The notes: a model not told the origin generated them from the sequence alone. A DNA stretch of 64,000 bases from an uncultured Dehalococcoidia bacterium (GCA_964405845.1 CAYOPL010000013.1:305-64304); one strand, 5' to 3'. Counted from the stretch's first letter, positions 1,137 through 61,978 are shown. Numbers and translations: made by a program.

Positions 1137-2651
1137 ATGACTAACCAACCCCCTTACCAACTCTCCAAGACCAGATACATGGCCGGTCTTCAATGCCTCA
1201 AGCGGCTGTACCTGGAGGTTCATCATCGCGACCTTGCCGATCCCGTCGCTCCGAGCCAGCAAGCAATCTTTGATACCGGAAACCTGGTGGGGGAGTTGGC
1301 AAGGGACAGATTCCCTGGCGGCACTCTCATCGAAGAGCAGTACTACGAGCAGGACGGGGCAGACATTTCAACACGAGCGCTAATGTCGGATGCTTCCATT
1401 CCTGCCCTGTATGAGGCGGCGTTCTCGTTCGAGGGGATTAGGACAAGAGTAGACATCCTGACCAGAGCCGATGATGGGCAGGGATTCGATCTCATTGAAG
1501 TCAAATCGACGAGCCGCTTTAAGGAACGAGAGCACCTTCCGGATGTTGCGATTCAGTTGCACGTAGTGGAGGGGAACGGTGTGCCAATCCGCCGCGCGTA
1601 CCTGATGCATATCGACAATACCTACGTGTATGAGGGTGGGGAACACGACCTCACACGCCTCTTTGCCTTGGAGGATGTTACCGATACGGCGAGGGAATAC
1701 CTTGCTGATGTTGAGCCCGGCAAGCTGGCGGAGATGTGGGAGTCATTGGGTCAAGCCGCGACCCTTGACATAGAGACGGGCCGACATTGCACGTCCCCTT
1801 ACCGGTGCCTGTTCTATAGCCACTGCCATGCAGATGAGCCTGAACATCCGATTGCAGAACTCCCTCGACTATCGCAACGCGTAGAAGAACGACTCAAGAG
1901 GCTAGGGATTCGGGATATTGAGAGCATTCCGAGCGACGCGAGGGGCTTATCGAATGTACAGCGTCGGGTACGCGATAGCGTTATCACCGGCAAGCAATAT
2001 GTAGGCTCAGACCTCAGCGAGCGACTATCCGGAATTGAGTTTCCGGCGTCATTCCTGGACTTCGAGACGATTCTTACTGCTGTTCCTATATTCGTTGGGA
2101 CAAGGCCATACCAGCAGATTCCGTTCCAGTGGTCTCTCCATCTGCAGGAATCTGACGGCTCATTGTCGCACCGTGACTACCTGCACGATGGGGATGATGA
2201 CCCACGACAAGAGTTCGTCACCAGCCTACTCGAGGCCATCCCGGCCAGTGGCTCAATCGTCGTTTACTCCGGCTACGAAGAGCGAATTCTGCGACAGCTT
2301 GCCAGTGAGTTCCCTCAATACAAGGCTCAGTTGATTGCGCTTACCGCGCGGCTCGTCGATCTGCTGCAGATTGTGAGTGACTGCTATTACCACCCTAAGT
2401 TCCATGGGAGCTTCTCGATCAAATCGGTGACGCCCGTCCTCGCCCCTGAGCTTTCCTATGAGGAACTCGACATACCCGACGGCCTCGCCGCATCAGCCGC
2501 ATACCAACGCCTGCTCACCAATGATGTCCCGCCGTCGGAGGCCACAAAAGTCAGACAATCCCTGCTCACCTACTGCGCGCAGGACACCGAAGCAATGGTC
2601 CGTGTCTACCAGGCACTGCTAAGAGAGATTGCCAATACTGCCGATTCTTAG
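1137..2651 (+). CDS. Fused nuclease. N-terminal Cas4/RecB-like PD-(D/E)XK domain with a 4-Cys cluster, plus a C-terminal DEDD 3'-5' exonuclease-like (DUF2779-like) region.
   Basis: 504-aa ORF. The N-terminus SKTRYMAGLQCLKRLYL contains an early Cys. RVDILTR...GFDLIEVKST is a RecB-like motif II/III (D...EVK). CTSPYRCLFYSHC supplies three more Cys. The C-terminal LDFETI is Exo I-like D-x-E, and YCAQD is an Exo III-like Y-x3-D. Confidence 0.6.
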   Translation: MTNQPPYQLSKTRYMAGLQCLKRLYLEVHHRDLADPVAPSQQAIFDTGNLVGELARDRFPGGTLIEEQYYEQDGADISTRALMSDASIPALYEAAFSFEGIRTRVDILTRADDGQGFDLIEVKSTSRFKEREHLPDVAIQLHVVEGNGVPIRRAYLMHIDNTYVYEGGEHDLTRLFALEDVTDTAREYLADVEPGKLAEMWESLGQAATLDIETGRHCTSPYRCLFYSHCHADEPEHPIAELPRLSQRVEERLKRLGIRDIESIPSDARGLSNVQRRVRDSVITGKQYVGSDLSERLSGIEFPASFLDFETILTAVPIFVGTRPYQQIPFQWSLHLQESDGSLSHRDYLHDGDDDPRQEFVTSLLEAIPASGSIVVYSGYEERILRQLASEFPQYKAQLIALTARLVDLLQIVSDCYYHPKFHGSFSIKSVTPVLAPELSYEELDIPDGLAASAAYQRLLTNDVPPSEATKVRQSLLTYCAQDTEAMVRVYQALLREIANTADS

Positions 2652-2697
2652 CTGGCGATGGGCCTGAATCCGACCACCGAACACAAAAGGAGTCGCC

Positions 2698-3405
2698 ATG
2701 GGAATCCTTGGAATCAAAAACAGGACAGAAAACTGGAAGACGGCTCGAACATTCGCGCCGTTCTATGGTGCCAACAGTGTGCGTCTCGCACGCCGTCTGC
2801 TTGGCCCAGATGCAACTCTTGAGCCGGGTGATGTCCGGCTTGAATTGTTTTGGAAGGGCGTGCGCGACTTAATCGATGGTAGAAACAGAGGCCGGCCGAA
2901 GGCGGAGAAGAAGAAGTTCACTGACTATGAGGATGAGTTTGGTGCATCGTTTGAGAGACATTTTGGAGGCCTGCGCGCTGCGATCAAAAGATTTATTAAG
3001 GAACAACCCCGTGTATTAAATTCTCTCCGGGGGCGTAACTATACAACTAATGGCAACCTCGAAGATGGCACGAGCACCAAGACTAAGCTGGCGAGCAACC
3101 TAAACGGTATCGAAATCGATATCGTGCTTGAAACCCCGGAGCACCTCCTTATCGGCGAGGCGAAGGACGAATCAAATTTCGGCACGGACGGGAGTCAAGT
3201 TCTCGTTCACCAGCTAATGGGCCAGTACGTGCAAGCGACGGTTCTACTTGATGTTCTGAAGATCGAAAAACAGGTGATGCCCTTCATCGTCTGTGATGAT
3301 AAAGCCGCCGTCATGAGAAGCGGTCAGATACAGTTCATGCTACGGAAAGGCTGGCTGAAGGAAGACCGCATCCTCACGTGGGATGACATAGAGGCGTTGC
3401 GCTAG
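2698..3405 (+). CDS. Hypothetical protein with a PD-(D/E)XK-like motif (restriction-endonuclease-like fold). Lower GC than its surroundings.
   Basis: 235-aa ORF. The motif IEIDIVLETPEHLLIGEAKDE fits hhhD-x10-hGEAK. Codon usage is AT-richer than in the neighbouring genes. Confidence 0.55.
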   Translation: MGILGIKNRTENWKTARTFAPFYGANSVRLARRLLGPDATLEPGDVRLELFWKGVRDLIDGRNRGRPKAEKKKFTDYEDEFGASFERHFGGLRAAIKRFIKEQPRVLNSLRGRNYTTNGNLEDGTSTKTKLASNLNGIEIDIVLETPEHLLIGEAKDESNFGTDGSQVLVHQLMGQYVQATVLLDVLKIEKQVMPFIVCDDKAAVMRSGQIQFMLRKGWLKEDRILTWDDIEALR

Positions 3406-15210: not shown

Positions 15211-15558
15211 ATGGCGCAGACTAACAAAACACAACGCGAGAAGAACACCGTCAGCGCATTTCACGCTGATGAGGAACGGGTGATGCTCGCCCTGGCATGG
15301 GCGGAGCACTCCATGACGTTGTCGGAGTTGTCGGCCAGCCTTGAGACCTCAGCGGCAGATTTGCGGGAGGCAATGCGTTCGCTCTATCGACATCATTTCC
15401 TGCTGATTTCGCGGGGTATTAGGCAAATTGAGGATACCTCCTGCTTTCACAGCCCGCCCGCGCGTATGTCCGCCGCTACCTGCTCCCTGAGACACCACGC
15501 AAGCTGCCGATCGAGGCACTCAAAATCACGACCAGGCGGCGCTAAAGGTCCGCGTTGA
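15211..15558 (+). CDS. Possible small hypothetical protein with a helix-turn-helix-like N-terminus. Weak call.
   Basis: The ORF fills a 345-bp intergenic gap. The N-terminal 70 aa look protein-like. The C-terminus is Arg/Ser-rich and overlaps the ccdA stop. Confidence 0.25.
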   Translation: MAQTNKTQREKNTVSAFHADEERVMLALAWAEHSMTLSELSASLETSAADLREAMRSLYRHHFLLISRGIRQIEDTSCFHSPPARMSAATCSLRHHASCRSRHSKSRPGGAKGPR

Positions 15559-16261
15559 ACGCGAACCAGTTGACCCACCAGTAGTAGGTGATATACGCGC
15601 CCGCGCCGATGAGCATGATCGGGCTCAGCCACTCCACAATCGGCATCGCCTGGCGAATCACCACGCGGATAAGGTCCTTGAAGACCGCAGCTCCCAGCGT
15701 CAGGCCAATCAAGCCTACGCCCATCCCCGCGCCGTAGATCAGGAACATGATGAATGCCGCATAGCCACCGATGACCTGGCCCTGCGCGAGAATGGCCAGA
15801 AAAATCGGGAACGTGCAGCTCAATGTGGCAAGCGCATACGCCAGCCCGAACAGGAAAACGGATGTCAGCCCCCGGCTCCCGGTGCCCCAATTGACTCCAA
15901 TGGTCGGAATGAGCGCGATGGAGCGCTTGTTCACCAGCATGAACGCGATCATGTACCCGCCCAATAGAATGAGTGCACCGCCGACGAAAATCGCGATATA
16001 GGGAATGATGTCGCGCAGGATAGTTCCCACCGCGCTCCACACGACGCCAAACGTGCCGAACAAGAACAGGAACGCGAGCGCCGCCGTGCCTCCGACAAGC
16101 ATCGCCTGACCAAGGCGGAGCGCAATGGGTCGCTCCTCGTAGCCTTCCTCGCGGGAACCGATGTAGTAGCCGATGTATGCGGGCAGCATCGCAACGCCGC
16201 ATGGGCTTGCCAGCGCGACAAAACCGGCGCTGAATGCAAAGGCAAAGGGAAGATTGAACAT
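15542..16261 (-). CDS. ccdA: Cytochrome c-type biogenesis protein CcdA (DsbD-like thiol-disulfide transporter)
   Basis: ASPCGVAMLPAYIGYY and a second Cys in LSCTFPIFL. 6 TM helices. Confidence 0.8.
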   Translation of the reverse strand: MFNLPFAFAFSAGFVALASPCGVAMLPAYIGYYIGSREEGYEERPIALRLGQAMLVGGTAALAFLFLFGTFGVVWSAVGTILRDIIPYIAIFVGGALILLGGYMIAFMLVNKRSIALIPTIGVNWGTGSRGLTSVFLFGLAYALATLSCTFPIFLAILAQGQVIGGYAAFIMFLIYGAGMGVGLIGLTLGAAVFKDLIRVVIRQAMPIVEWLSPIMLIGAGAYITYYWWVNWFAFNADL

Positions 16262-16351: not shown

Positions 16352-16759
16352 CTAGACGTTTACGGCTTCCTGGTCAATAACGGAGCAGGACATCAGGCGC
16401 TCTGTGGTCTCCATGAGCATGGCGTCGCCAAGAGCCAGGATGTCCCTGACGCGCTGATCTGTTACCGAGTAAAAGACGTTGCGGCCACGCCGATCCGCGT
16501 CAACGAAACCGCACCAGCGGAGGCAGGAAAGGTGGCTGGAAACGCGGCCTTGCGGCGCGCCCAGCATCTCCACCAGCTCCGAAACACTGCGCTCTGACTC
16601 CAATAGGATGTGAAGAATTCGCAGTCGCGTTGGGTCTCCAAGCCCGCGGAAGAATCGAGCTGCCGCCTCTGCGCCGGAGGGCGCGCTGACCATTGGGCCC
16701 GTTGGCGTAAGTGTCAGTACGTGCATTGCGCTCATTGCGTGAGTCCGTCCAATCCCCAT
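16352..16759 (-). CDS. ArsR/SmtB family metalloregulator-like transcriptional regulator
   Basis: The wHTH segment LGDPTRLRILHILLESERSVSELVEMLGAPQGRVSSHLSCLRWCGFV. Lies directly upstream of ccdA on the same strand. Confidence 0.8.
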   Translation of the reverse strand: MGIGRTHAMSAMHVLTLTPTGPMVSAPSGAEAAARFFRGLGDPTRLRILHILLESERSVSELVEMLGAPQGRVSSHLSCLRWCGFVDADRRGRNVFYSVTDQRVRDILALGDAMLMETTERLMSCSVIDQEAVNV

Positions 16760-16879: not shown

Positions 16880-18046
16880 ATGCACGCGCCCATTTTCTCT
16901 CAGACTTTCGATCGACGCTTGTTGACCACATTGCAACACGCGGCCCTTCTCGCTGCGGTCATTGTTGCCGTGCTGGCAGCGGCCTGCGTTAGCGAGCCAA
17001 CTCCAACTCCTACGCCTCAACCCACTGCCACAAGCTCACCGACCGCGACACCCCTTCCAACCCCAATCCCCAGCCCAACGGCCGCTCACACGCCTCGCCC
17101 AATCAGCCTGCCCGCAGATGAAGCACCCCACACGGATCCCGTGGAGTGGTGGTATTACAGCGGCATCATGGAGGACGAAAACGACAACGACTATGGATTC
17201 CATTTCGTCATATTCCAAGTGACGAACCCGGAGACCGGCGATGCGGGCTACATGTCCCACACATCCGTGTTTGATGTCACAGCAGAACACCGGGAACAGT
17301 CAGTGCGCTTCGGCGTGGGCGCGCAGGCTCAGCCGGCGACGGGATTTGAATTCTCTGTAGGAGATTGGACACTCAGCGGGGACGACGGAACGCACTCATT
17401 CGCCGCGACAACAGACACCTTTGGATTCGACCTCACCGTGGAGACCACCAAGCCTGCCGTTCTTCATAACGAAACCGGTTACCTGGAGGCGCTTAACGGC
17501 TGGACCTACTACTACAGCTGGACCAACATGGACCTCACTGGAACGCTCACCGTCGATGGGCAGGAGCTGGACGTTACCGGTGAAGCGTGGATGGATCACC
17601 AATGGGGCGACTTTGTCGTCAGCGGATACCCGAGCGGCTGGCAGTGGTTCGCCGTCTCCATGGACAACAACTATGAGTTGATGGTGGCCGAAGCCCGGGA
17701 ATCCGATGGTCAAGTCATTATTTACGGCACTTTAGTTGACCCATCCGGCGCGACAACGCACATCGACGGCGAGGACGTCACAATCGAAGTTCTTGGCATG
17801 TGGGCAAGTCCTCACACAGGCGGTGAATATCCTGCGGGATGGCGCATCACGATCCCGGCGCAGGAACTCTCCATGACGCTCACACCTCTGCTGGATGACC
17901 AGGAATTCACACTTGCCTTCCCACCGAACACCATTTACTGGGAGGGCCTGACGGAAACGGACATCACATTTGGCGGGGACCCCGTAAATGGTTCTGCTTA
18001 CGTGGAACTTGTAGGGTACGCCCCGCCACCAACGCCAACTCCGTAA
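16880..18046 (+). CDS. Secreted lipoprotein of the CrtC/AttH lipocalin-like family, with a PT-rich linker
   Basis: Lipobox LAAAC, then a TPTPTPQPTA linker. WWYYSG...HQWGDF motifs are typical of hydroxyneurosporene-synthase-like/AttH domains. Confidence 0.6.
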   Translation: MHAPIFSQTFDRRLLTTLQHAALLAAVIVAVLAAACVSEPTPTPTPQPTATSSPTATPLPTPIPSPTAAHTPRPISLPADEAPHTDPVEWWYYSGIMEDENDNDYGFHFVIFQVTNPETGDAGYMSHTSVFDVTAEHREQSVRFGVGAQAQPATGFEFSVGDWTLSGDDGTHSFAATTDTFGFDLTVETTKPAVLHNETGYLEALNGWTYYYSWTNMDLTGTLTVDGQELDVTGEAWMDHQWGDFVVSGYPSGWQWFAVSMDNNYELMVAEARESDGQVIIYGTLVDPSGATTHIDGEDVTIEVLGMWASPHTGGEYPAGWRITIPAQELSMTLTPLLDDQEFTLAFPPNTIYWEGLTETDITFGGDPVNGSAYVELVGYAPPPTPTP

Positions 18047-58004: not shown

Positions 58005-58067
58005 GAGGTATACGTCCTCCATACTTTCCTACCTGAATCTCTCACCAACCCCCACTCAAACTCCAAA

Positions 58068-60590
58068 ATGGCCCGCACCCCTTACATCACGTGTAGTTCA
58101 TGCAGAGTCAGCATGCACAACGACGCGTATGGGTATCACAAGCACAACCCACGGCGAAAGCCAATACCGCGAGACACAACCGAGTGTTTAGCATGTCGTG
58201 GCACAGGCCTGGTACAAGGGGCTGGTTCTCAGGCTAACACCCTTGGATGGCTATTGGAGCATGGTCGAAGAATAAGTTGTGTGCGTTGTTTCGGGCAGGG
58301 ACGAGTGGGCACGGCCCATTCGCCGCGCTCTTCTCCGCGTGGTGGCGTGTCGATTCTTAAGCCTCAGGCTCAGGCAAACCCACCGGGCTTAACGCCGTCC
58401 GAACGCGAACGGCTGATGGAGGCCGTGGAGCAAGTAGTTACGGACGCCGAAAAAGAGGCGGAGGAGCAAAGGCGTCAGGCAGAAGAAAGACAGGCGGCGC
58501 GCGAACAAGGACAAACAGGGGAGCAGAAACGCACACCCAGATCACCATCAGCTGAATGGCTTCCTCAAGGCTTTCAAACAAACGCACAATGCGCACACGT
58601 GTCAAGCCGAGGATTACGTTGCTGGCGCAGAGCACAAATCGACTCGGAAATGTGCGCGGAACATACCGTGACCAAAACCGAGAAAGAGGCGCAAGAGCAG
58701 GAACATAGAGCAGAAGAGGAACGTACAGCACGCGAACAAAAGCAAGCAGAGGAGCGGTTATGGAATGAAGTAACCAGGCGTGCTGAATCCAGCTCACAGT
58801 CAGGATCTGAAGCAGACCAAGCAAAACCCCAAGAACGATTATGGGCCGAACTGCGTTATCAGGCAGAAGAGCGCTTGTGGGACGAAGCAGTCAGAGATGC
58901 CAGACGTAAGGGACGAGTCGGGCGCCTCTTTCGCCGAATCTTCCTCGCTCTACTGCTGATTCTTATCAGCGCCACGGCCATCTTGTTCCTTACTCAGACC
59001 CCGGTGGAAGACATAGTCGATTCGGTAAGGGGTTTCTGGGGCGACTCAGGCATTACCATTCCCGACGGTGAGTCAGAACAGCCCGACACCAACGGCACGG
59101 ATTCTGTTGCCCCTCCGGTAGTTCCCTCACCCACGGCAACGGCAACCCTAACTCGGACGCCCACGCCCACTGTTGCTCCAACGCCGACACCTGTCGCGGT
59201 ATCCCCATGGGCGGGTTTCATTATCACGTCGGAGACTCTTGGCAAGGACATTACAGACAGGCTTTCGGAAGAAGAGATGGCTTGTCTACGGTCTTCTAAT
59301 TCCGATGGATACTATGAGTATTTCCAGTCCGAGCCTATTGGTGTGCGGGTGAGTATGAATCCGCCCGTCCGCGATGTCACCGACTTGCCAGCACTGGCTG
59401 AATGCCTATCACAGGAAAGCGCGCAGCATCTCAATCTTGCAATCGCCATATTCCATGATCCGAGTCTGGCCCCACCCACTCCGACCGCCATACCAACTCC
59501 TGCTCCAACTCCCGGGCCCACCTCCGCGCCTACAGCAACAGCGACGCCACGGCCGACGGCAACGCCAAGCCCTCATCTCCTCCACCTCAATGAGAAGAAA
59601 TATGTGTTGGAACTGATCAACAATGCGCGCAGAGCAAACGGGCTTACACCGGTAGAACTCGGAGAAAATATCGCCGCGCAGTTACATGTCGAAAGCGCTC
59701 TCAGGAATTGCGTTTCATCACATTGGGGCTTGGATGGCCTAAAGCCCGGCATGCGCTACAGCCTCGCGGGTGGATATCAGTCGAATGGGGAGGTTGCGTC
59801 CGGATTGGATTATTGCTACAGAGCAAGAGACCGGGTAACACCGATAGGAAGCGTGCGCCAAAGAATCCTGCAGGCTCATCAGGGATTGATGGGCAGCCCA
59901 GGACATCGAGCCAGTATCCTGAGAGAGACTCACCGTAAGGTGAATATCGGGCTGGCATGGGATCGCTACAACCTCTACGTGGTCCAACACTTTGAAGGCG
60001 GCCACGTGGAGTATGAGGAGTTGCCAGAGATTTCAGACGGGATTCTTCAGGTGAAGGGGAGCTTGACTTCAGGTTTTCGTTTTGCAGGCGATAATCCGCT
60101 TGGACTTCAAATCTACTATGACCCGCCCCCCCATAACCTCACACGCGGCCAGGTTTCAAGAACGTACTGCTACGACAGTGGCCGCCAAGTCGCTGCTCTG
60201 CGTCCACCTCTATCAGGGGGATACTACTATCCAACAGACTCATTCACGCAGAACCTGAAATTCTGCCCAAGCCCTTATGATGTTCCCTCCGCGACTCAAC
60301 CTGCGCGTTCAGGAGAAGAAGCTCACCGTATTTGGGCAACCGTCAAGGCCGAAAGTGAAAGACTGGGGTCAGTTCCTGTAACCGTGCCGTGGATTACTGC
60401 CAGCAGACTACAAACGCAGGGCAGGAATTTTGAGGCCCGGGCGTCAATACAAGATGTGTTGCGGCAGCGCGGATCAGGCGTTTATTCCATCATTGTTTGG
60501 GGTGATTTAGCTGGCCATGATGAATCAGTCGTCATCTCCCAATATTCAATTTTCCACCAAATCGACCCACCTACAACATATGACCCTTAA
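58068..60590 (+). CDS. Multidomain type II membrane protein: N-terminal DnaJ-type CxxCxGxG zinc finger, repetitive coiled coil, TM helix, PT-rich linkers, CAP/SCP (PR-1-like) domain and a C-terminal Cys-containing domain. Lies in a low-GC island.
   Basis: CLACRGTG and CVRCFGQG, plus CxxC at residues 9-12. AEERLW repeated three times. TM helix IFLALLLILISATAILFL. CAP motifs HQGLMGSPGHRASIL and VGLAWDRYNLYVVQHFEG. GC is about 10 points below the flanking genes. Confidence 0.6.
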   Translation: MARTPYITCSSCRVSMHNDAYGYHKHNPRRKPIPRDTTECLACRGTGLVQGAGSQANTLGWLLEHGRRISCVRCFGQGRVGTAHSPRSSPRGGVSILKPQAQANPPGLTPSERERLMEAVEQVVTDAEKEAEEQRRQAEERQAAREQGQTGEQKRTPRSPSAEWLPQGFQTNAQCAHVSSRGLRCWRRAQIDSEMCAEHTVTKTEKEAQEQEHRAEEERTAREQKQAEERLWNEVTRRAESSSQSGSEADQAKPQERLWAELRYQAEERLWDEAVRDARRKGRVGRLFRRIFLALLLILISATAILFLTQTPVEDIVDSVRGFWGDSGITIPDGESEQPDTNGTDSVAPPVVPSPTATATLTRTPTPTVAPTPTPVAVSPWAGFIITSETLGKDITDRLSEEEMACLRSSNSDGYYEYFQSEPIGVRVSMNPPVRDVTDLPALAECLSQESAQHLNLAIAIFHDPSLAPPTPTAIPTPAPTPGPTSAPTATATPRPTATPSPHLLHLNEKKYVLELINNARRANGLTPVELGENIAAQLHVESALRNCVSSHWGLDGLKPGMRYSLAGGYQSNGEVASGLDYCYRARDRVTPIGSVRQRILQAHQGLMGSPGHRASILRETHRKVNIGLAWDRYNLYVVQHFEGGHVEYEELPEISDGILQVKGSLTSGFRFAGDNPLGLQIYYDPPPHNLTRGQVSRTYCYDSGRQVAALRPPLSGGYYYPTDSFTQNLKFCPSPYDVPSATQPARSGEEAHRIWATVKAESERLGSVPVTVPWITASRLQTQGRNFEARASIQDVLRQRGSGVYSIIVWGDLAGHDESVVISQYSIFHQIDPPTTYDP

Positions 60591-60724
60591 GCAGTATCCT
60601 CGCTTGCACTAAAGCTAATCACCTCTTTTCCACACAACGCGGCAATCAGCGGGAACCAGCGCTTGTACGTTGTCCAGAACTTCTGTTAGTGCAAACACGA
60701 GAATGTTCGCGATGCTAGCACGGC

Positions 60725-60756
60725 GTGACAATCTATCTTGCTTGTGTCACTGTGTC
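60725..60756. promoter_or_regulatory. Conserved upstream motif GTGACAATCT..TTG..CTTGTG.CACTGTGTC (copy A), 28 nt upstream of the MaoC-N gene
   Basis: Shares about 26 of 33 positions with 61906-61938. Contains the inverted half-sites GTGACA...TGTCAC. Confidence 0.45.
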
Positions 60757-60783
60757 CGCAATATCGGGGGTTGGGGGTGAACC

Positions 60784-61905: not shown

Positions 61906-61938
61906 GTGACAATCTTGCCCCGCTTGTGCCACTGTGTC
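61906..61938. promoter_or_regulatory. Conserved upstream motif (copy B) preceding the thiolase-like gene
   Basis: gtgacaatcttgccccgcttgtgccactgtgtc read directly. Preceded by the hairpin cacgcgg-cacaggc-ccgcgtg at 61888-61908. Confidence 0.45.
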
Positions 61939-61978
61939 GGCAGCGGGTGAGAGCGCCCGCATGGGGGAGGAATTGTCT

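What the first reader, a model, noticed from the sequence alone, without database searches (positions are those of the whole stretch)
58005..60783. Low-GC island encoding an 840-aa membrane protein joining a cytoplasmic DnaJ-type zinc finger and coiled coil to extracellular CAP/SCP (PR-1-like) and Cys-containing domains
GC drops about 10 points, and codon third positions lose their G/C bias exactly over 58005-60780, interrupting the catabolic cluster. The encoded protein has CxxC plus two CxxCxGxG repeats in its first 75 residues. It has a highly charged helical region with three AEERLW repeats and one TM helix. After that come a PT-rich linker, an about-90-aa domain, a second PT linker, a CAP domain (HQGLMGSPGHRASIL; GLAWDRYNLYVVQHFEG) and a 200-aa C-terminal domain with four Cys. 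A CAP domain tethered to the membrane and coupled through a single TM helix to a cytoplasmic zinc finger and coiled coil looks like a transmembrane signalling or anti-sigma-like architecture. It could also be a surface effector. I do not know this combination as a described family.
Basis: partly seen in the sequence, partly recalled or inferred. Interest (0 to 1): 0.65.

Follow-up and report, generated by a model that had tools for sequence, protein, structure and literature searches.

The report
Mosaic, swappable CAP surface-protein gene
This is a real gene for a membrane-anchored surface protein of an uncultured marine-type Dehalococcoidia bacterium. Related strains keep it at one fixed chromosomal position but swap both its outer CAP "head" and its inner DnaJ-like "tail" by recombination, so it is a strain-variable surface locus and not a recent foreign insertion or a sigma-factor switch.

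Summary
ORF 58068-60590 (+) encodes 840 aa, and 58005-60783 is the lowest-GC stretch of the window. Its GC3 is 0.52 against 0.77-0.83 in the six neighbouring genes.

The architecture is N-in/C-out:
- a C2H-type knuckle plus one CxxCxGxG zinc centre;
- a charged spacer and one TM helix;
- PT linker, a new small alpha domain, PT linker;
- a CAP domain (Pfam, just above cutoff);
- an Ig-like beta-sandwich, which is the usual partner of CAP in about 690 protein clusters.

The interpretation needs revising. Six other loci from related Dehalococcoidia, five of them distinct genomes, carry a gene in the same slot (ACAD-CaiB-ACAD-[X]-MaoC-MaoC-thiolase). Their flanks are 86-97% identical at the protein level. 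The slot gene itself is a mosaic:
- the cytoplasmic module is a zinc finger or a true J-domain;
- the head is CAP-A/beta, CAP-B/beta, a short CAP-C, or a non-CAP domain;
- breakpoints lie near the TM helix and at PT linker 2.

Low GC3 is shared by all alleles and by most of the 81 family genes surveyed.

No sigma factor, DnaK or other conserved partner lies next to family genes. No integrase, tRNA or flanking repeat marks the block. Best reading: a strain-variable, stalked surface-display protein whose cytoplasmic DnaJ-derived module probably engages Hsp70. The ligand and biochemical role are unknown.

The parts
58005..58067 (+). Upstream intergenic spacer; left edge of the variable block
   Evidence: All alleles are conserved up to the ACAD2 stop codon. 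The spacer is shared among Zn-finger alleles but replaced by a longer, different sequence in the J-domain alleles.
58068..60590 (+). ORF840: type-II single-pass surface protein (840 aa plus stop)
   Evidence: dN/dS is 0.11-0.27 in the homologous segments, so it is a protein-coding gene under purifying selection.
58092..58145 (+). C9-x2-C12-x4-H17-x6-H24-x-H26 knuckle (cytoplasmic; putative first zinc site)
   Evidence: Conserved in the Zn-finger alleles. Zinc binding is inferred, not tested.
58185..58301 (+). Two CxxCxGxG motifs (aa 40-47 and 71-78): a single DnaJ/Anti-TRAP-type zinc centre
   Evidence: C and G positions are invariant in alignment A2. A2 against PDB sequences gives marginal hits to UvrA (1.2e-3), antiterminator Q (2.6e-3), the DnaJ Cys-rich domain 1exk (4.7e-3) and Anti-TRAP. 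Pfam hits are sub-threshold only.
58389..58922 (+). Charged E/R/A/Q-rich spacer (aa 108-285), with two AEERLW motifs and one QERLW
   Evidence: Composition E 19%, R 14%, A 12%, Q 11%. Only the first about 27 aa are conserved between alleles; the rest is length-variable. Helical or coiled-coil structure was not modelled.
58590..58664 (+). CX9CX10CX2H cluster (aa 175-199), an allele-specific insert
   Evidence: Cys and His positions. WRC PF08879 E = 0.056. Absent from the orthologues.
58938..59006 (+). Transmembrane helix (aa 291-313), N-in/C-out
   Evidence: Hydropathy. Eight Arg/Lys on the N-side against one on the C-side.
59109..59195 (+). PT-rich linker 1
   Evidence: Disordered in the AF2 model.
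59196..59471 (+). Mid domain (aa about 377-468): small all-alpha domain with a Cys406/Cys446 pair
   Evidence: AF2 pLDDT 88-96. No PDB fold match, best E = 1.3. Up to 97% nt identity to the J-domain allele L090.
59472..59579 (+). PT-rich linker 2: recombination breakpoint between stem and head
   Evidence: Identity switches here in all six pairwise comparisons.
59580..60002 (+). CAP/SCP (PR-1-like) domain, bacterial type, with a Cys548/Cys583 pair
   Evidence: PF00188 at aa 514-642, 22.6 bits against a cutoff of 21.1. TIGR02909 YkwD partial match, 1.3e-8. H552, E575, R614, N616 and H622 are nearly invariant in the family.
60003..60587 (+). C-terminal Ig-like beta-sandwich with one long helix and a Cys701/Cys733 pair; usual partner of CAP
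   Evidence: AF2 pLDDT 90.4. Only generic Ig-like or transglutaminase-N matches, E >= 7e-3. 686 50%-identity clusters, and 61 of 70 sampled carry CAP. No Pfam model matches it.
60591..60760 (+). Downstream variable intergenic region; right edge of the block, ending in a 21-nt motif (60740-60760)
   Evidence: Not alignable between alleles: 0.14-0.41 identity. Conservation resumes about 20-45 nt before the MaoC1 ATG. Motif.

Best explanation
ORF840 is one allele of a strain-variable surface-display protein of Dehalococcoidia (SAR202-like) bacteria.

Shown:
- It is a type-II membrane protein. A cytoplasmic zinc module and charged spacer lead to one TM helix, a Pro/Thr-rich stalk interrupted by a small new alpha domain, and a terminal head. 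The head is a bacterial CAP domain plus an Ig-like beta-sandwich that accompanies CAP almost wherever it occurs.
- The gene sits in a fixed slot inside an acyl-CoA catabolic cluster in seven related sequences (six distinct genomes or contigs).
- The slot content is assembled combinatorially. The cytoplasmic module is the Zn finger or a J-domain. The head is one of at least four types.
- Recombination breakpoints lie near the TM helix and at PT linker 2.
- Low GC3 characterises every allele and most of the wider family.

Inferred:
- The head binds an external ligand through the conserved CAP His/Glu cavity.
- The PT stalks hold the head away from the membrane.
- Swapping reflects diversifying selection on an exposed surface structure, from phage, grazers or a host.
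- Both alternative tails are parts of DnaJ. The cytoplasmic module therefore most likely docks the anchor to the DnaK/Hsp70 system, for biogenesis, quality control or turnover of the protein. It is less likely to be a transcriptional signalling output.
For: Architecture and topology.

Family and taxon: 47 homologues. 427 confirmed stretches in Dehalococcoidia/SAR202 MAGs.

Same slot, with flanks 86-97% identical.

Allele types by Pfam: L090 is J-domain only, L091 is J plus CAP, L083 has a strong short CAP, L002 and L001 have CAP.

Mosaic history:
- Against L001, CAP and C-terminal dS is 0.33-0.72, like the flanks at 0.62-0.80. N-terminal, coiled-coil, TM and mid segments have dS of 1.4 up to saturation.
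- Against L002 the pattern is reversed.

Purifying selection: dN/dS 0.11-0.27.

Low GC3: all six slot alleles at 0.52-0.58 against 0.72-0.86 for the flanks. Family-wide median is 0.126 below the flanks over 81 genes.

DnaJ derivation of the tail: J plus CxxCxGxG in L040, P0038, P0048 and P0049. Marginal profile hits to the DnaJ Cys-rich domain and Anti-TRAP.

The beta-sandwich is the usual partner of CAP.

Surface-displayed CAP plus Ig-like domain has a precedent in C. difficile Cwp11/12 (PMC5842191).
Against: - No biochemical function is established for any prokaryotic CAP domain (PMC5842191), so ligand binding is an assumption.
- The zinc module of this allele does not reach any Pfam threshold. 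It has one, not two, CxxCxGxG centres. An Hsp70 link is direct only for the J-domain alleles.
- No DnaK gene is a conserved neighbour.
- Diversifying selection was not tested with site models. dN/dS in alignable segments is below 1.
- Low GC3 is unexplained and could still reflect repeated import from lower-GC donors.
- Expression, surface exposure and glycosylation are all untested.
Confidence: 0.62

Rival explanations
1. A recently acquired genomic island: foreign low-GC DNA inserted into the catabolic cluster of this genome by horizontal transfer.
For: Lowest GC and GC3 in the window, with sharp edges. It interrupts an otherwise coherent ACAD/CaiB/MaoC/thiolase cluster. The N-terminal, TM and mid segments are far more divergent than the flanks, which requires import of DNA from divergent alleles.
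Against: - The slot is occupied by a homologous gene in six other related loci.
- The CAP and C-terminal segments have flank-like dS against L001.
- There is no tRNA, no integrase or other ORF in the block, and only chance-level flanking repeats.
- Low GC3 is a property of most of the family in many genomes.
Confidence: 0.1
2. A transmembrane signalling protein of the anti-sigma or RsgI kind. The extracellular CAP head senses a ligand, and the cytoplasmic zinc-finger and coiled-coil part sequesters or releases a regulator.
For: Single-pass N-in/C-out topology with a cytoplasmic zinc-binding module and variable extracellular heads on PT-rich linkers. By my own knowledge this resembles clostridial RsgI anti-sigma factors. 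Membrane J-protein DjlA does feed into Rcs signalling (PMC11709261).
Against: - Neither sigma-70 family domains nor two-component domains are among the 25 commonest Pfam families of 141 immediate neighbours.
- The flanks here are catabolic enzymes.
- No HxxxCxxC ZAS motif is in the sequence. No anti-sigma Pfam or NCBIfam hit.
- The cytoplasmic module is freely replaced by a J-domain, by a 2xCxxC module, or by nothing (plain signal-anchor) in family members carrying the same head. That argues against a dedicated signalling output.
Confidence: 0.1
3. A functional component of the flanking catabolic cluster. The CAP head captures sterol- or lipid-like substrates outside the cell for the ACAD/MaoC/thiolase-like (steroid side-chain-type) enzymes.
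For: Eukaryotic CAP proteins bind sterols and fatty acids (PMC4921858, PMC5893428). The gene is co-oriented with the cluster, with short gaps and no predicted terminator. The position is conserved in this clade.
Against: - Only 2 of 141 immediate neighbours of family genes elsewhere are ACADs, one of them in the syntenic locus L002.
- One allele in the same slot has no CAP domain at all: L090.
- Codon usage differs sharply from the cluster.
- The head is swapped among unrelated types, which is unexpected for a dedicated substrate binder.
Confidence: 0.06
4. A host- or partner-directed surface effector or adhesin: a eukaryote-like CAP/PR-1 domain used in symbiosis or cell-cell interaction.
For: CAP proteins are virulence or host-interaction factors in fungi, in helminths and in Borrelia BB0689 (PMC11784157, PMC10189770). 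Family members are fused to LRR, RCC1, TPR and fn3 modules. Rapid head replacement fits an antagonistic or recognition interface.
Against: The habitat or host of these MAGs was not established here. The CAP domain is of the bacterial YkwD-like type, not a eukaryotic-type CAP. There is no experimental evidence. This reading overlaps with the best explanation and does not exclude it.
Confidence: 0.12

Closest known systems
Bacterial CAP/SCP (YkwD-like, COG2340) extracellular proteins, e.g. B. subtilis YkwD, Borrelia BB0689, B. anthracis 4IFA
   Same: CAP domain recognised by PF00188. Partial YkwD TIGR02909 match. Extracytoplasmic location. Conserved His/Glu motif positions. Function unknown, as for all prokaryotic CAPs (PMC5842191).
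   Different: Far below the YkwD family cutoff (34.8 bits against 171). Tethered by a type-II TM helix and a long PT stalk. Fused to a dedicated beta-sandwich and to a cytoplasmic DnaJ-type module. The known examples are small secreted proteins or lipoproteins.
C. difficile cell-wall proteins Cwp11/Cwp12 (cell-wall-binding repeats + Big_3 Ig-like domain + CAP)
   Same: Surface display of a CAP domain together with an Ig-like domain on a dedicated anchor (PMC5842191).
   Different: The anchor is CWB2 repeats on the wall, not a TM helix. The Ig-like domain comes before CAP, not after it. There is no cytoplasmic part. No sequence relationship was tested.
DnaJ cysteine-rich (CxxCxGxG) domain and Anti-TRAP
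   Same: Identical CxxCxGxG motif pair with invariant Cys and Gly. Marginal profile hits to 1exk and Anti-TRAP. The same module follows a real J-domain in relatives.
   Different: One zinc centre instead of DnaJ's two. No Pfam threshold is reached. An extra C2H-type knuckle lies upstream. The module is attached to a membrane anchor.
Membrane-anchored J-proteins: ZipN/Ftn2/ARC6 (J-domain, TM helix, extracytoplasmic domain) and DjlA
   Same: The sister alleles L090 and L091 have a cytoplasmic N-terminal J-domain, a single TM helix and a large extracytoplasmic C-terminus. That is the ZipN/ARC6 layout (PMC6391411). DjlA shows that a membrane J-protein can act through DnaK (PMC11709261).
   Different: No sequence homology outside the J-domain was shown. 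The window allele has no J-domain. The extracellular parts are unrelated. There is no link to FtsZ or Rcs.
Replacement-type flexible genomic islands and mosaic surface-protein loci (my own knowledge of marine population genomics)
   Same: Fixed position between conserved flanks. Highly divergent or non-homologous alleles in close relatives. Atypical composition. Encodes an exposed envelope component.
   Different: A single gene, not a multi-gene glycosylation or O-antigen cluster. Replacement acts on intragenic modules, with PT-linker and TM-proximal breakpoints. The cytoplasmic module is swapped as well.

Membership tests
CAP superfamily (Pfam PF00188) | Profile-HMM match at or above the gathering score | tested here: met
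   22.6 bits against a cutoff of 21.1, aa 514-642, full profile 1-117. Relatives reach E = 7.5e-16.
CAP superfamily (Pfam PF00188) | Conserved cavity residues (two His plus acidic residue) and alpha-beta-alpha sandwich fold | tested here: inconclusive
   H552, E575, R614, N616 and H622 are nearly invariant in the family, and SPGHR is present. The CAP domain itself was not modelled. Single-sequence and profile searches against PDB sequences gave no significant CAP hit (4ifa E = 0.021).
YkwD subfamily (NCBIfam TIGR02909) | Score at or above the curated cutoff | tested here: not met
   34.8 bits against a cutoff of 171; only profile positions 77-125 match.
DnaJ central cysteine-rich domain (PF00684) | Four CxxCxGxG repeats forming two zinc centres; HMM match | tested here: not met
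   Only two CxxCxGxG motifs. No PF00684 hit for this protein. Relatives reach only 2e-3 to 4.5e-3, below the cutoff.
Anti-TRAP (PF15777) | HMM match at or above the gathering score | tested here: not met
   E = 0.13, 12.8 bits against a cutoff of 32. Relatives reach at most 26.9 bits.
J-domain proteins (PF00226) | J-domain with HPD motif | tested here: not met
   Absent from ORF840. Present in alleles of the same slot, L090 (3e-22) and L091 (4.5e-22).
Zinc-binding anti-sigma factors (ZAS) / RsgI-like | HxxxCxxC motif or anti-sigma N-domain; adjacent cognate sigma-factor gene | tested here: not met
   No such motif in the sequence. No Pfam or NCBIfam anti-sigma hit. The neighbours here are catabolic enzymes. 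Sigma factors are not among the 25 commonest Pfam families of 141 neighbours.
Integrative genomic island (classical HGT island) | Integrase or recombinase, tRNA or att-type flanking direct repeats, absence from close relatives | tested here: not met
   No tRNA in the window. No further real ORF in the block. Only short chance-level repeats. The slot is occupied in six related loci.
Replacement-type flexible island / mosaic surface locus | Same position between conserved flanks, with divergent or non-homologous alleles and segment-wise discordant divergence | tested here: met
   Flanks 86-97% aa identity, against alleles with different heads and tails. dS is discordant between segments. Breakpoints are mapped.
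Anti-phage defence systems (PADLOC) / phage proteins (PHROGs) | Profile match | tested here: not met
   No PADLOC hit. Only weak CAP, PT-linker or J-domain matches in PHROGs.

The most novel reading that the evidence does not exclude
The family is a previously unrecognised class of chaperone-coupled surface receptors. A swappable extracellular head (CAP/beta-sandwich or other) is wired through one TM helix to a DnaJ-derived cytoplasmic module, either a J-domain or a CxxCxGxG zinc finger. Events at the cell surface would then directly recruit or activate DnaK/Hsp70 at the membrane. This would be an outside-in link between the environment and the proteostasis machinery, not a transcription-factor relay.
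Probability: 0.12. Interest if true: 0.8.

Novelty: new variant of a known kind. Interest (0 to 1): 0.5.

Why it matters
SAR202/Dehalococcoidia are abundant and uncultured, and their envelope is essentially unknown. This locus matters for four reasons:
- It defines a large lineage-specific family of stalked surface proteins. The beta-sandwich alone spans about 690 50%-identity clusters. Two of its domains lack Pfam models and have no PDB fold match.
- It is a clean natural example of intragenic module swapping at one orthologous slot, with Pro/Thr-linker DNA as a junction.
- It raises a concrete, testable question: why are the two halves of DnaJ, the J-domain and the zinc finger, used interchangeably as cytoplasmic tails of extracellular CAP proteins?
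- It is a caution. A sharp low-GC "island" here marks a long-lived hypervariable locus, not a recent insertion.

Tried and rejected
- **Recent HGT island:** rejected on synteny, flank-like dS in part of the gene, and the absence of mobility signatures.
- **Anti-sigma or two-component partner:** the neighbour census of 141 genes showed no conserved partner.
- **Link to the catabolic cluster:** not conserved outside this clade, and one slot allele lacks CAP.
- **Defence or phage origin:** no PADLOC hit and nothing meaningful in PHROGs.
- **Non-coding features:** no Rfam family, no tRNA, and no promoter or terminator signal above shuffles.
- **DalA lead:** NCBIfam E = 0.04, and the paper does not describe a CAP domain, so I kept it only as a lead.
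- **PDB sequence searches:** the CAP domain alone found nothing, and the whole-family profile found mostly PT-linker noise.
- **Zn-module profile search** of the 5.8-billion-protein set returned only three small proteins.
- **Empty slot:** the metagenome scan with MaoC1 gave one more occupied slot (L083). The other hits were distant clusters of different layout.
- **Encoding-contig look-ups** for P0001 and P0021 found no record.
- **L003 C-terminal dN/dS** is an artefact of an apparent frameshift and was discarded.
Full report

Yes. The + strand carries an 840-codon ORF at 58068-60590. An open frame of that length has a chance probability of about 2e-15 at this composition.

The interval 58005-60783 has GC 0.546 against 0.602 for the rest of the window. 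It is the lowest of all 2.8-kb windows.

The anomaly lies mainly in third codon positions. GC3 is 0.521, against 0.77-0.83 in the six flanking genes. That is z = -2.7 against 53 other long ORFs. The single ORF with lower GC3 (15447-16202, minus strand) is a spurious overlap of a real membrane-protein gene whose GC3 is 0.78.

The stated motifs are present:
- CxxC at aa 9.
- CxxCxGxG at aa 40 and 71.
- A hydrophobic helix at about aa 291-313. It is preceded by eight Arg/Lys (VRDARRKGRVGRLFRR) and followed by an acidic stretch, which gives N-in/C-out topology.
- PT-rich linkers at aa 348-370 and 463-504.

Pfam places a full-length CAP domain at aa 514-642, just above the gathering score (22.6 against 21.1 bits). 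NCBIfam gives a partial YkwD match.

- AEERLW occurs twice exactly, plus one QERLW.
- The C-terminal domain has two cysteines, not four. Each extracellular domain has exactly one Cys pair: 406/446, 548/583 and 701/733.
- No DnaJ_CXXCXGXG HMM hit is obtained for this protein; Anti-TRAP reaches E = 0.13.

**2. The parts of the protein**

*Zinc module.* Eleven related N-termini were aligned. C40, C43, G45, G47, C71, C74, G76 and G78 are invariant. In the orthologues an upstream C-x2-C-x4-H-x6-H-x-H knuckle is conserved as well.

A profile of this module against PDB sequences gives only marginal hits. All of them are CxxCxGxG-type zinc modules:
- UvrA, 1.2e-3;
- lambdoid antiterminator Q, 2.6e-3;
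- the DnaJ cysteine-rich domain 1exk, 4.7e-3;
- Anti-TRAP, 0.015-0.06.

The stronger argument for a DnaJ origin is the company the module keeps. In L040 a bona fide J-domain (3e-20) is followed by the same CxxCxGxG pair. The same holds in P0038, P0048 and P0049.

*Mid region.* AlphaFold2 on an 18-sequence alignment models aa 305-357 as disordered. It models aa about 374-468 as a confident small all-alpha domain (pLDDT 88-96). That domain has no PDB fold match (best Foldseek E = 1.3).

*C-terminal domain.* Residues 643-840 fold with pLDDT 90.4 into a beta-sandwich with one long helix. Foldseek finds only generic Ig-like matches: the transglutaminase N-domain, FlaF and V-set domains, all at E >= 7e-3.

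An exhaustive phmmer search finds this domain in 686 50%-identity clusters. Of 70 sampled representatives, 61 also carry CAP. Occasional extra modules are LRR, RCC1, TPR, PBP and J-domains. CAP plus beta-sandwich is therefore a fixed two-domain head. The beta-sandwich has no Pfam model of its own.

**3. Who has it and where**

The protein search returned 47 homologues, none of them named by their sources.

A scan of species-representative genomes found 427 confirmed stretches. Of the 80 loci returned, 78 are titled Dehalococcoidia or SAR202 MAGs. The other two are titled Chloroflexota and Pseudomonadales. Several genomes hold more than one copy, and some copies are in tandem.

The head is attached to many anchors:
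- a plain signal-anchor;
- a 2xCxxC module plus TM;
- the CxxC plus 2xCxxCxGxG module of this gene;
- a J-domain;
- a J-domain plus CxxCxGxG.

A Pfam census of 141 immediate neighbours of family genes shows no conserved partner. The commonest families are ABC permeases (9), methyltransferases (8) and HIBADH-type dehydrogenases (7). Only two neighbours are ACADs. Neither sigma factors nor DnaK are among the 25 commonest families.

**4. The slot**

Six further loci carry a gene in exactly the same place: L001 (the same genome as L049), L002, L003, L083, L090 and L091. The layout is SpeE/SpeD - ACAD - fused CaiB - ACAD - [X] - MaoC - MaoC - thiolase-like - DUF35.

In the three loci compared directly (L001, L002, L003), flanking proteins are 86-97% identical to those of the window.

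The occupant differs from genome to genome:

| Locus | Cytoplasmic module | Head |
|---|---|---|
| window, L001, L003 | Zn finger | CAP-A / beta-A |
| L002 | Zn finger | CAP-B / beta-B (CAP 40% identical; beta domain not detectable by tblastn) |
| L083 | Zn finger | short canonical CAP-C (PF00188 3.8e-14), no beta-sandwich |
| L091 | J-domain | CAP-B |
| L090 | J-domain | no Pfam match |

In L091 the public gene call uses an internal start.

Synonymous divergence is discordant along the gene:
- Flanks have dS 0.5-1.0 (the short DUF35 gene 1.2-1.7) and dN/dS 0.02-0.09.
- Against L001, the CAP and C-terminal segments have flank-like dS (0.33 and 0.72) with dN/dS 0.11-0.16. The N-terminal, coiled-coil, TM and mid segments have dS of 1.4 or more, up to saturation.
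- Against L002 the pattern is reversed.

Sliding identity locates the switches:
- One lies at PT linker 2 (about 59,470-59,580).
- One lies near the TM helix (about 59,000).
- The window's juxtamembrane, PT1 and mid-domain stretch is 77-97% identical to that of the J-domain allele L090. That is higher than the 84-89% upstream flank, although the two N-termini are unrelated.

The variable block starts right after the ACAD2 stop codon. It ends about 20-45 nt before the MaoC1 start codon. These are the composition-defined coordinates of the finding.

All six slot alleles have GC3 of 0.52-0.58, against 0.72-0.86 in their own flanks. Across 81 family genes the median GC3 deficit relative to local genes is 0.126.

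The block contains no tRNA, integrase, meaningful flanking repeat or Rfam family.

**5. What it most likely is and does**

*Shown.* This is a real gene under purifying selection. It encodes a type-II single-pass protein whose large C-terminal part is extracytoplasmic and whose N-terminal part is cytoplasmic and zinc-motif-rich. It is one allele of a mosaic locus in which both ends are exchanged by recombination.

*Inferred.*
- The protein is displayed on the cell surface on Pro/Thr-rich stalks, which may be glycosylated.
- The CAP/beta head binds an external ligand. The CAP His/Glu positions H552, E575 and H622 are nearly invariant, along with R614 and N616.
- Head replacement reflects diversifying pressure on an exposed structure.
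- The two alternative cytoplasmic modules are the two signature parts of DnaJ. One of them is a canonical J-domain with an HPD motif. The simplest common denominator is engagement of DnaK/Hsp70 or its clients at the membrane, for biogenesis, quality control or turnover of the anchor.

I give the architecture-plus-evolution reading a confidence of about 0.6. The biochemical role of the head is unknown. No prokaryotic CAP domain has an established function (PMC5842191).

**6. Rivals**

- *Recent HGT island.* Contradicted by synteny, by partly flank-like dS, and by the missing mobility signatures.
- *Anti-sigma-type signalling.* There is no cognate neighbour and no anti-sigma motif or HMM. The tail is dispensable or replaceable across the family.
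- *Substrate capture for the adjacent catabolic enzymes.* The association is clade-specific, and one slot allele has no CAP.
- *Host- or partner-directed effector or adhesin.* This is compatible with the data but untested. It overlaps with the best explanation.

**7. Comparison with what is known**

The head is a member of the CAP superfamily by HMM, but it fails the YkwD subfamily cutoff.

The zinc module works like a DnaJ/Anti-TRAP zinc centre but fails both Pfam thresholds. It also has one centre, not two, so I do not file it as a DnaJ cysteine-rich domain.

The nearest architectural analogues are:
- ZipN/Ftn2/ARC6: J-domain, TM helix, extracytoplasmic domain (PMC6391411);
- DjlA (PMC11709261);
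- for the head, C. difficile Cwp11/12: anchor plus Ig-like domain plus CAP (PMC5842191).

At locus level it behaves like a replacement-type flexible island, but one that acts on intragenic modules.

My literature searches found no description of a J-domain or Zn-finger, TM helix and CAP protein family in Chloroflexi.

**8. Verdict**

Novelty: a new variant of known kinds. Known domains appear in an undescribed combination, with two unmodelled domains and an unusually clear case of two-ended cassette swapping.

Interest is moderate (0.5). The most novel reading the evidence does not exclude is a chaperone-coupled surface receptor. I give it about 0.12 probability.

Still unexplained:
- the persistent low GC3 of the whole family;
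- the role of the cytoplasmic DnaJ-derived modules;
- when the gene first entered the catabolic cluster, since no empty slot was found.

Noticed in passing
window 60740-60760 and 61922-61942: A 21-nt direct repeat GCTTGTGYCACTGTGTCSGCA. One copy lies 24 nt upstream of the MaoC1 start. The other lies at or just upstream of the thiolase-like gene start. Chance expectation is 0.01 matches. It is present in L001 and L003, degenerate in L002, and absent in L083, L090 and L091. It could be a shared regulatory or translational element.
   Followed up: partly
window 58590-58664 (aa 175-199 of ORF840): An allele-specific insert with exact CX9CX10CX2H spacing (plant WRC-type zinc motif; PF08879 E = 0.056). 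Looser C...C...CxxH clusters occur at the N-termini of P0038, P0040 and L054.
   Followed up: partly
L091 6410-8908; L003 10001-12487; P0004, P0005, P0008 and others: Public gene calls for this family are often wrong at the 5' end. P0016 (L091) starts internally and loses its J-domain. Several orthologues start at Met16 and lose the conserved CxxC. The L003 copy (P0006) appears frameshifted near the C-terminus.
   Followed up: partly
window 16880-18046 (+): Another predicted signal-anchor plus PT-rich-linker protein (EPTPTPTPQPTATSSPTATPLPTPIPSPT...). PT stalks seem to be a general feature of this organism's exported proteins.
   Followed up: no
window 15447-16202 (-) and 15542-16261 (-): The ORF with the lowest GC3 in the window (0.468) is a spurious Arg/His-rich overlap. 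The real gene is a multi-TM protein at 15542-16261 (GC3 0.779). A small gene lies next to it at 16352-16759.
   Followed up: partly
L051 9179-12832; L068 9287-13993; P0046; P0051, P0052: Family members fuse the CAP/beta head to trypsin-like peptidase and PPC domains, to LRR or RCC1 repeats, or carry up to three beta-sandwich copies.
   Followed up: partly
L008, L011, L046, L065: Tandem pairs of family genes occur in some genomes. These are potential donors for cassette exchange.
   Followed up: no
L002 13376-13965: A DUF433/DUF5615 gene pair is inserted between MaoC2 and the thiolase-like gene in one syntenic genome only. It looks toxin-antitoxin-like by my own knowledge. The cluster tolerates other small insertions.
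   Followed up: no
window 1137-3405: The second-lowest-GC stretch of the window holds a DUF2779/RNase-H-like protein (GC3 0.62) and a 235-aa ORF with no Pfam match (GC3 0.59).
   Followed up: partly
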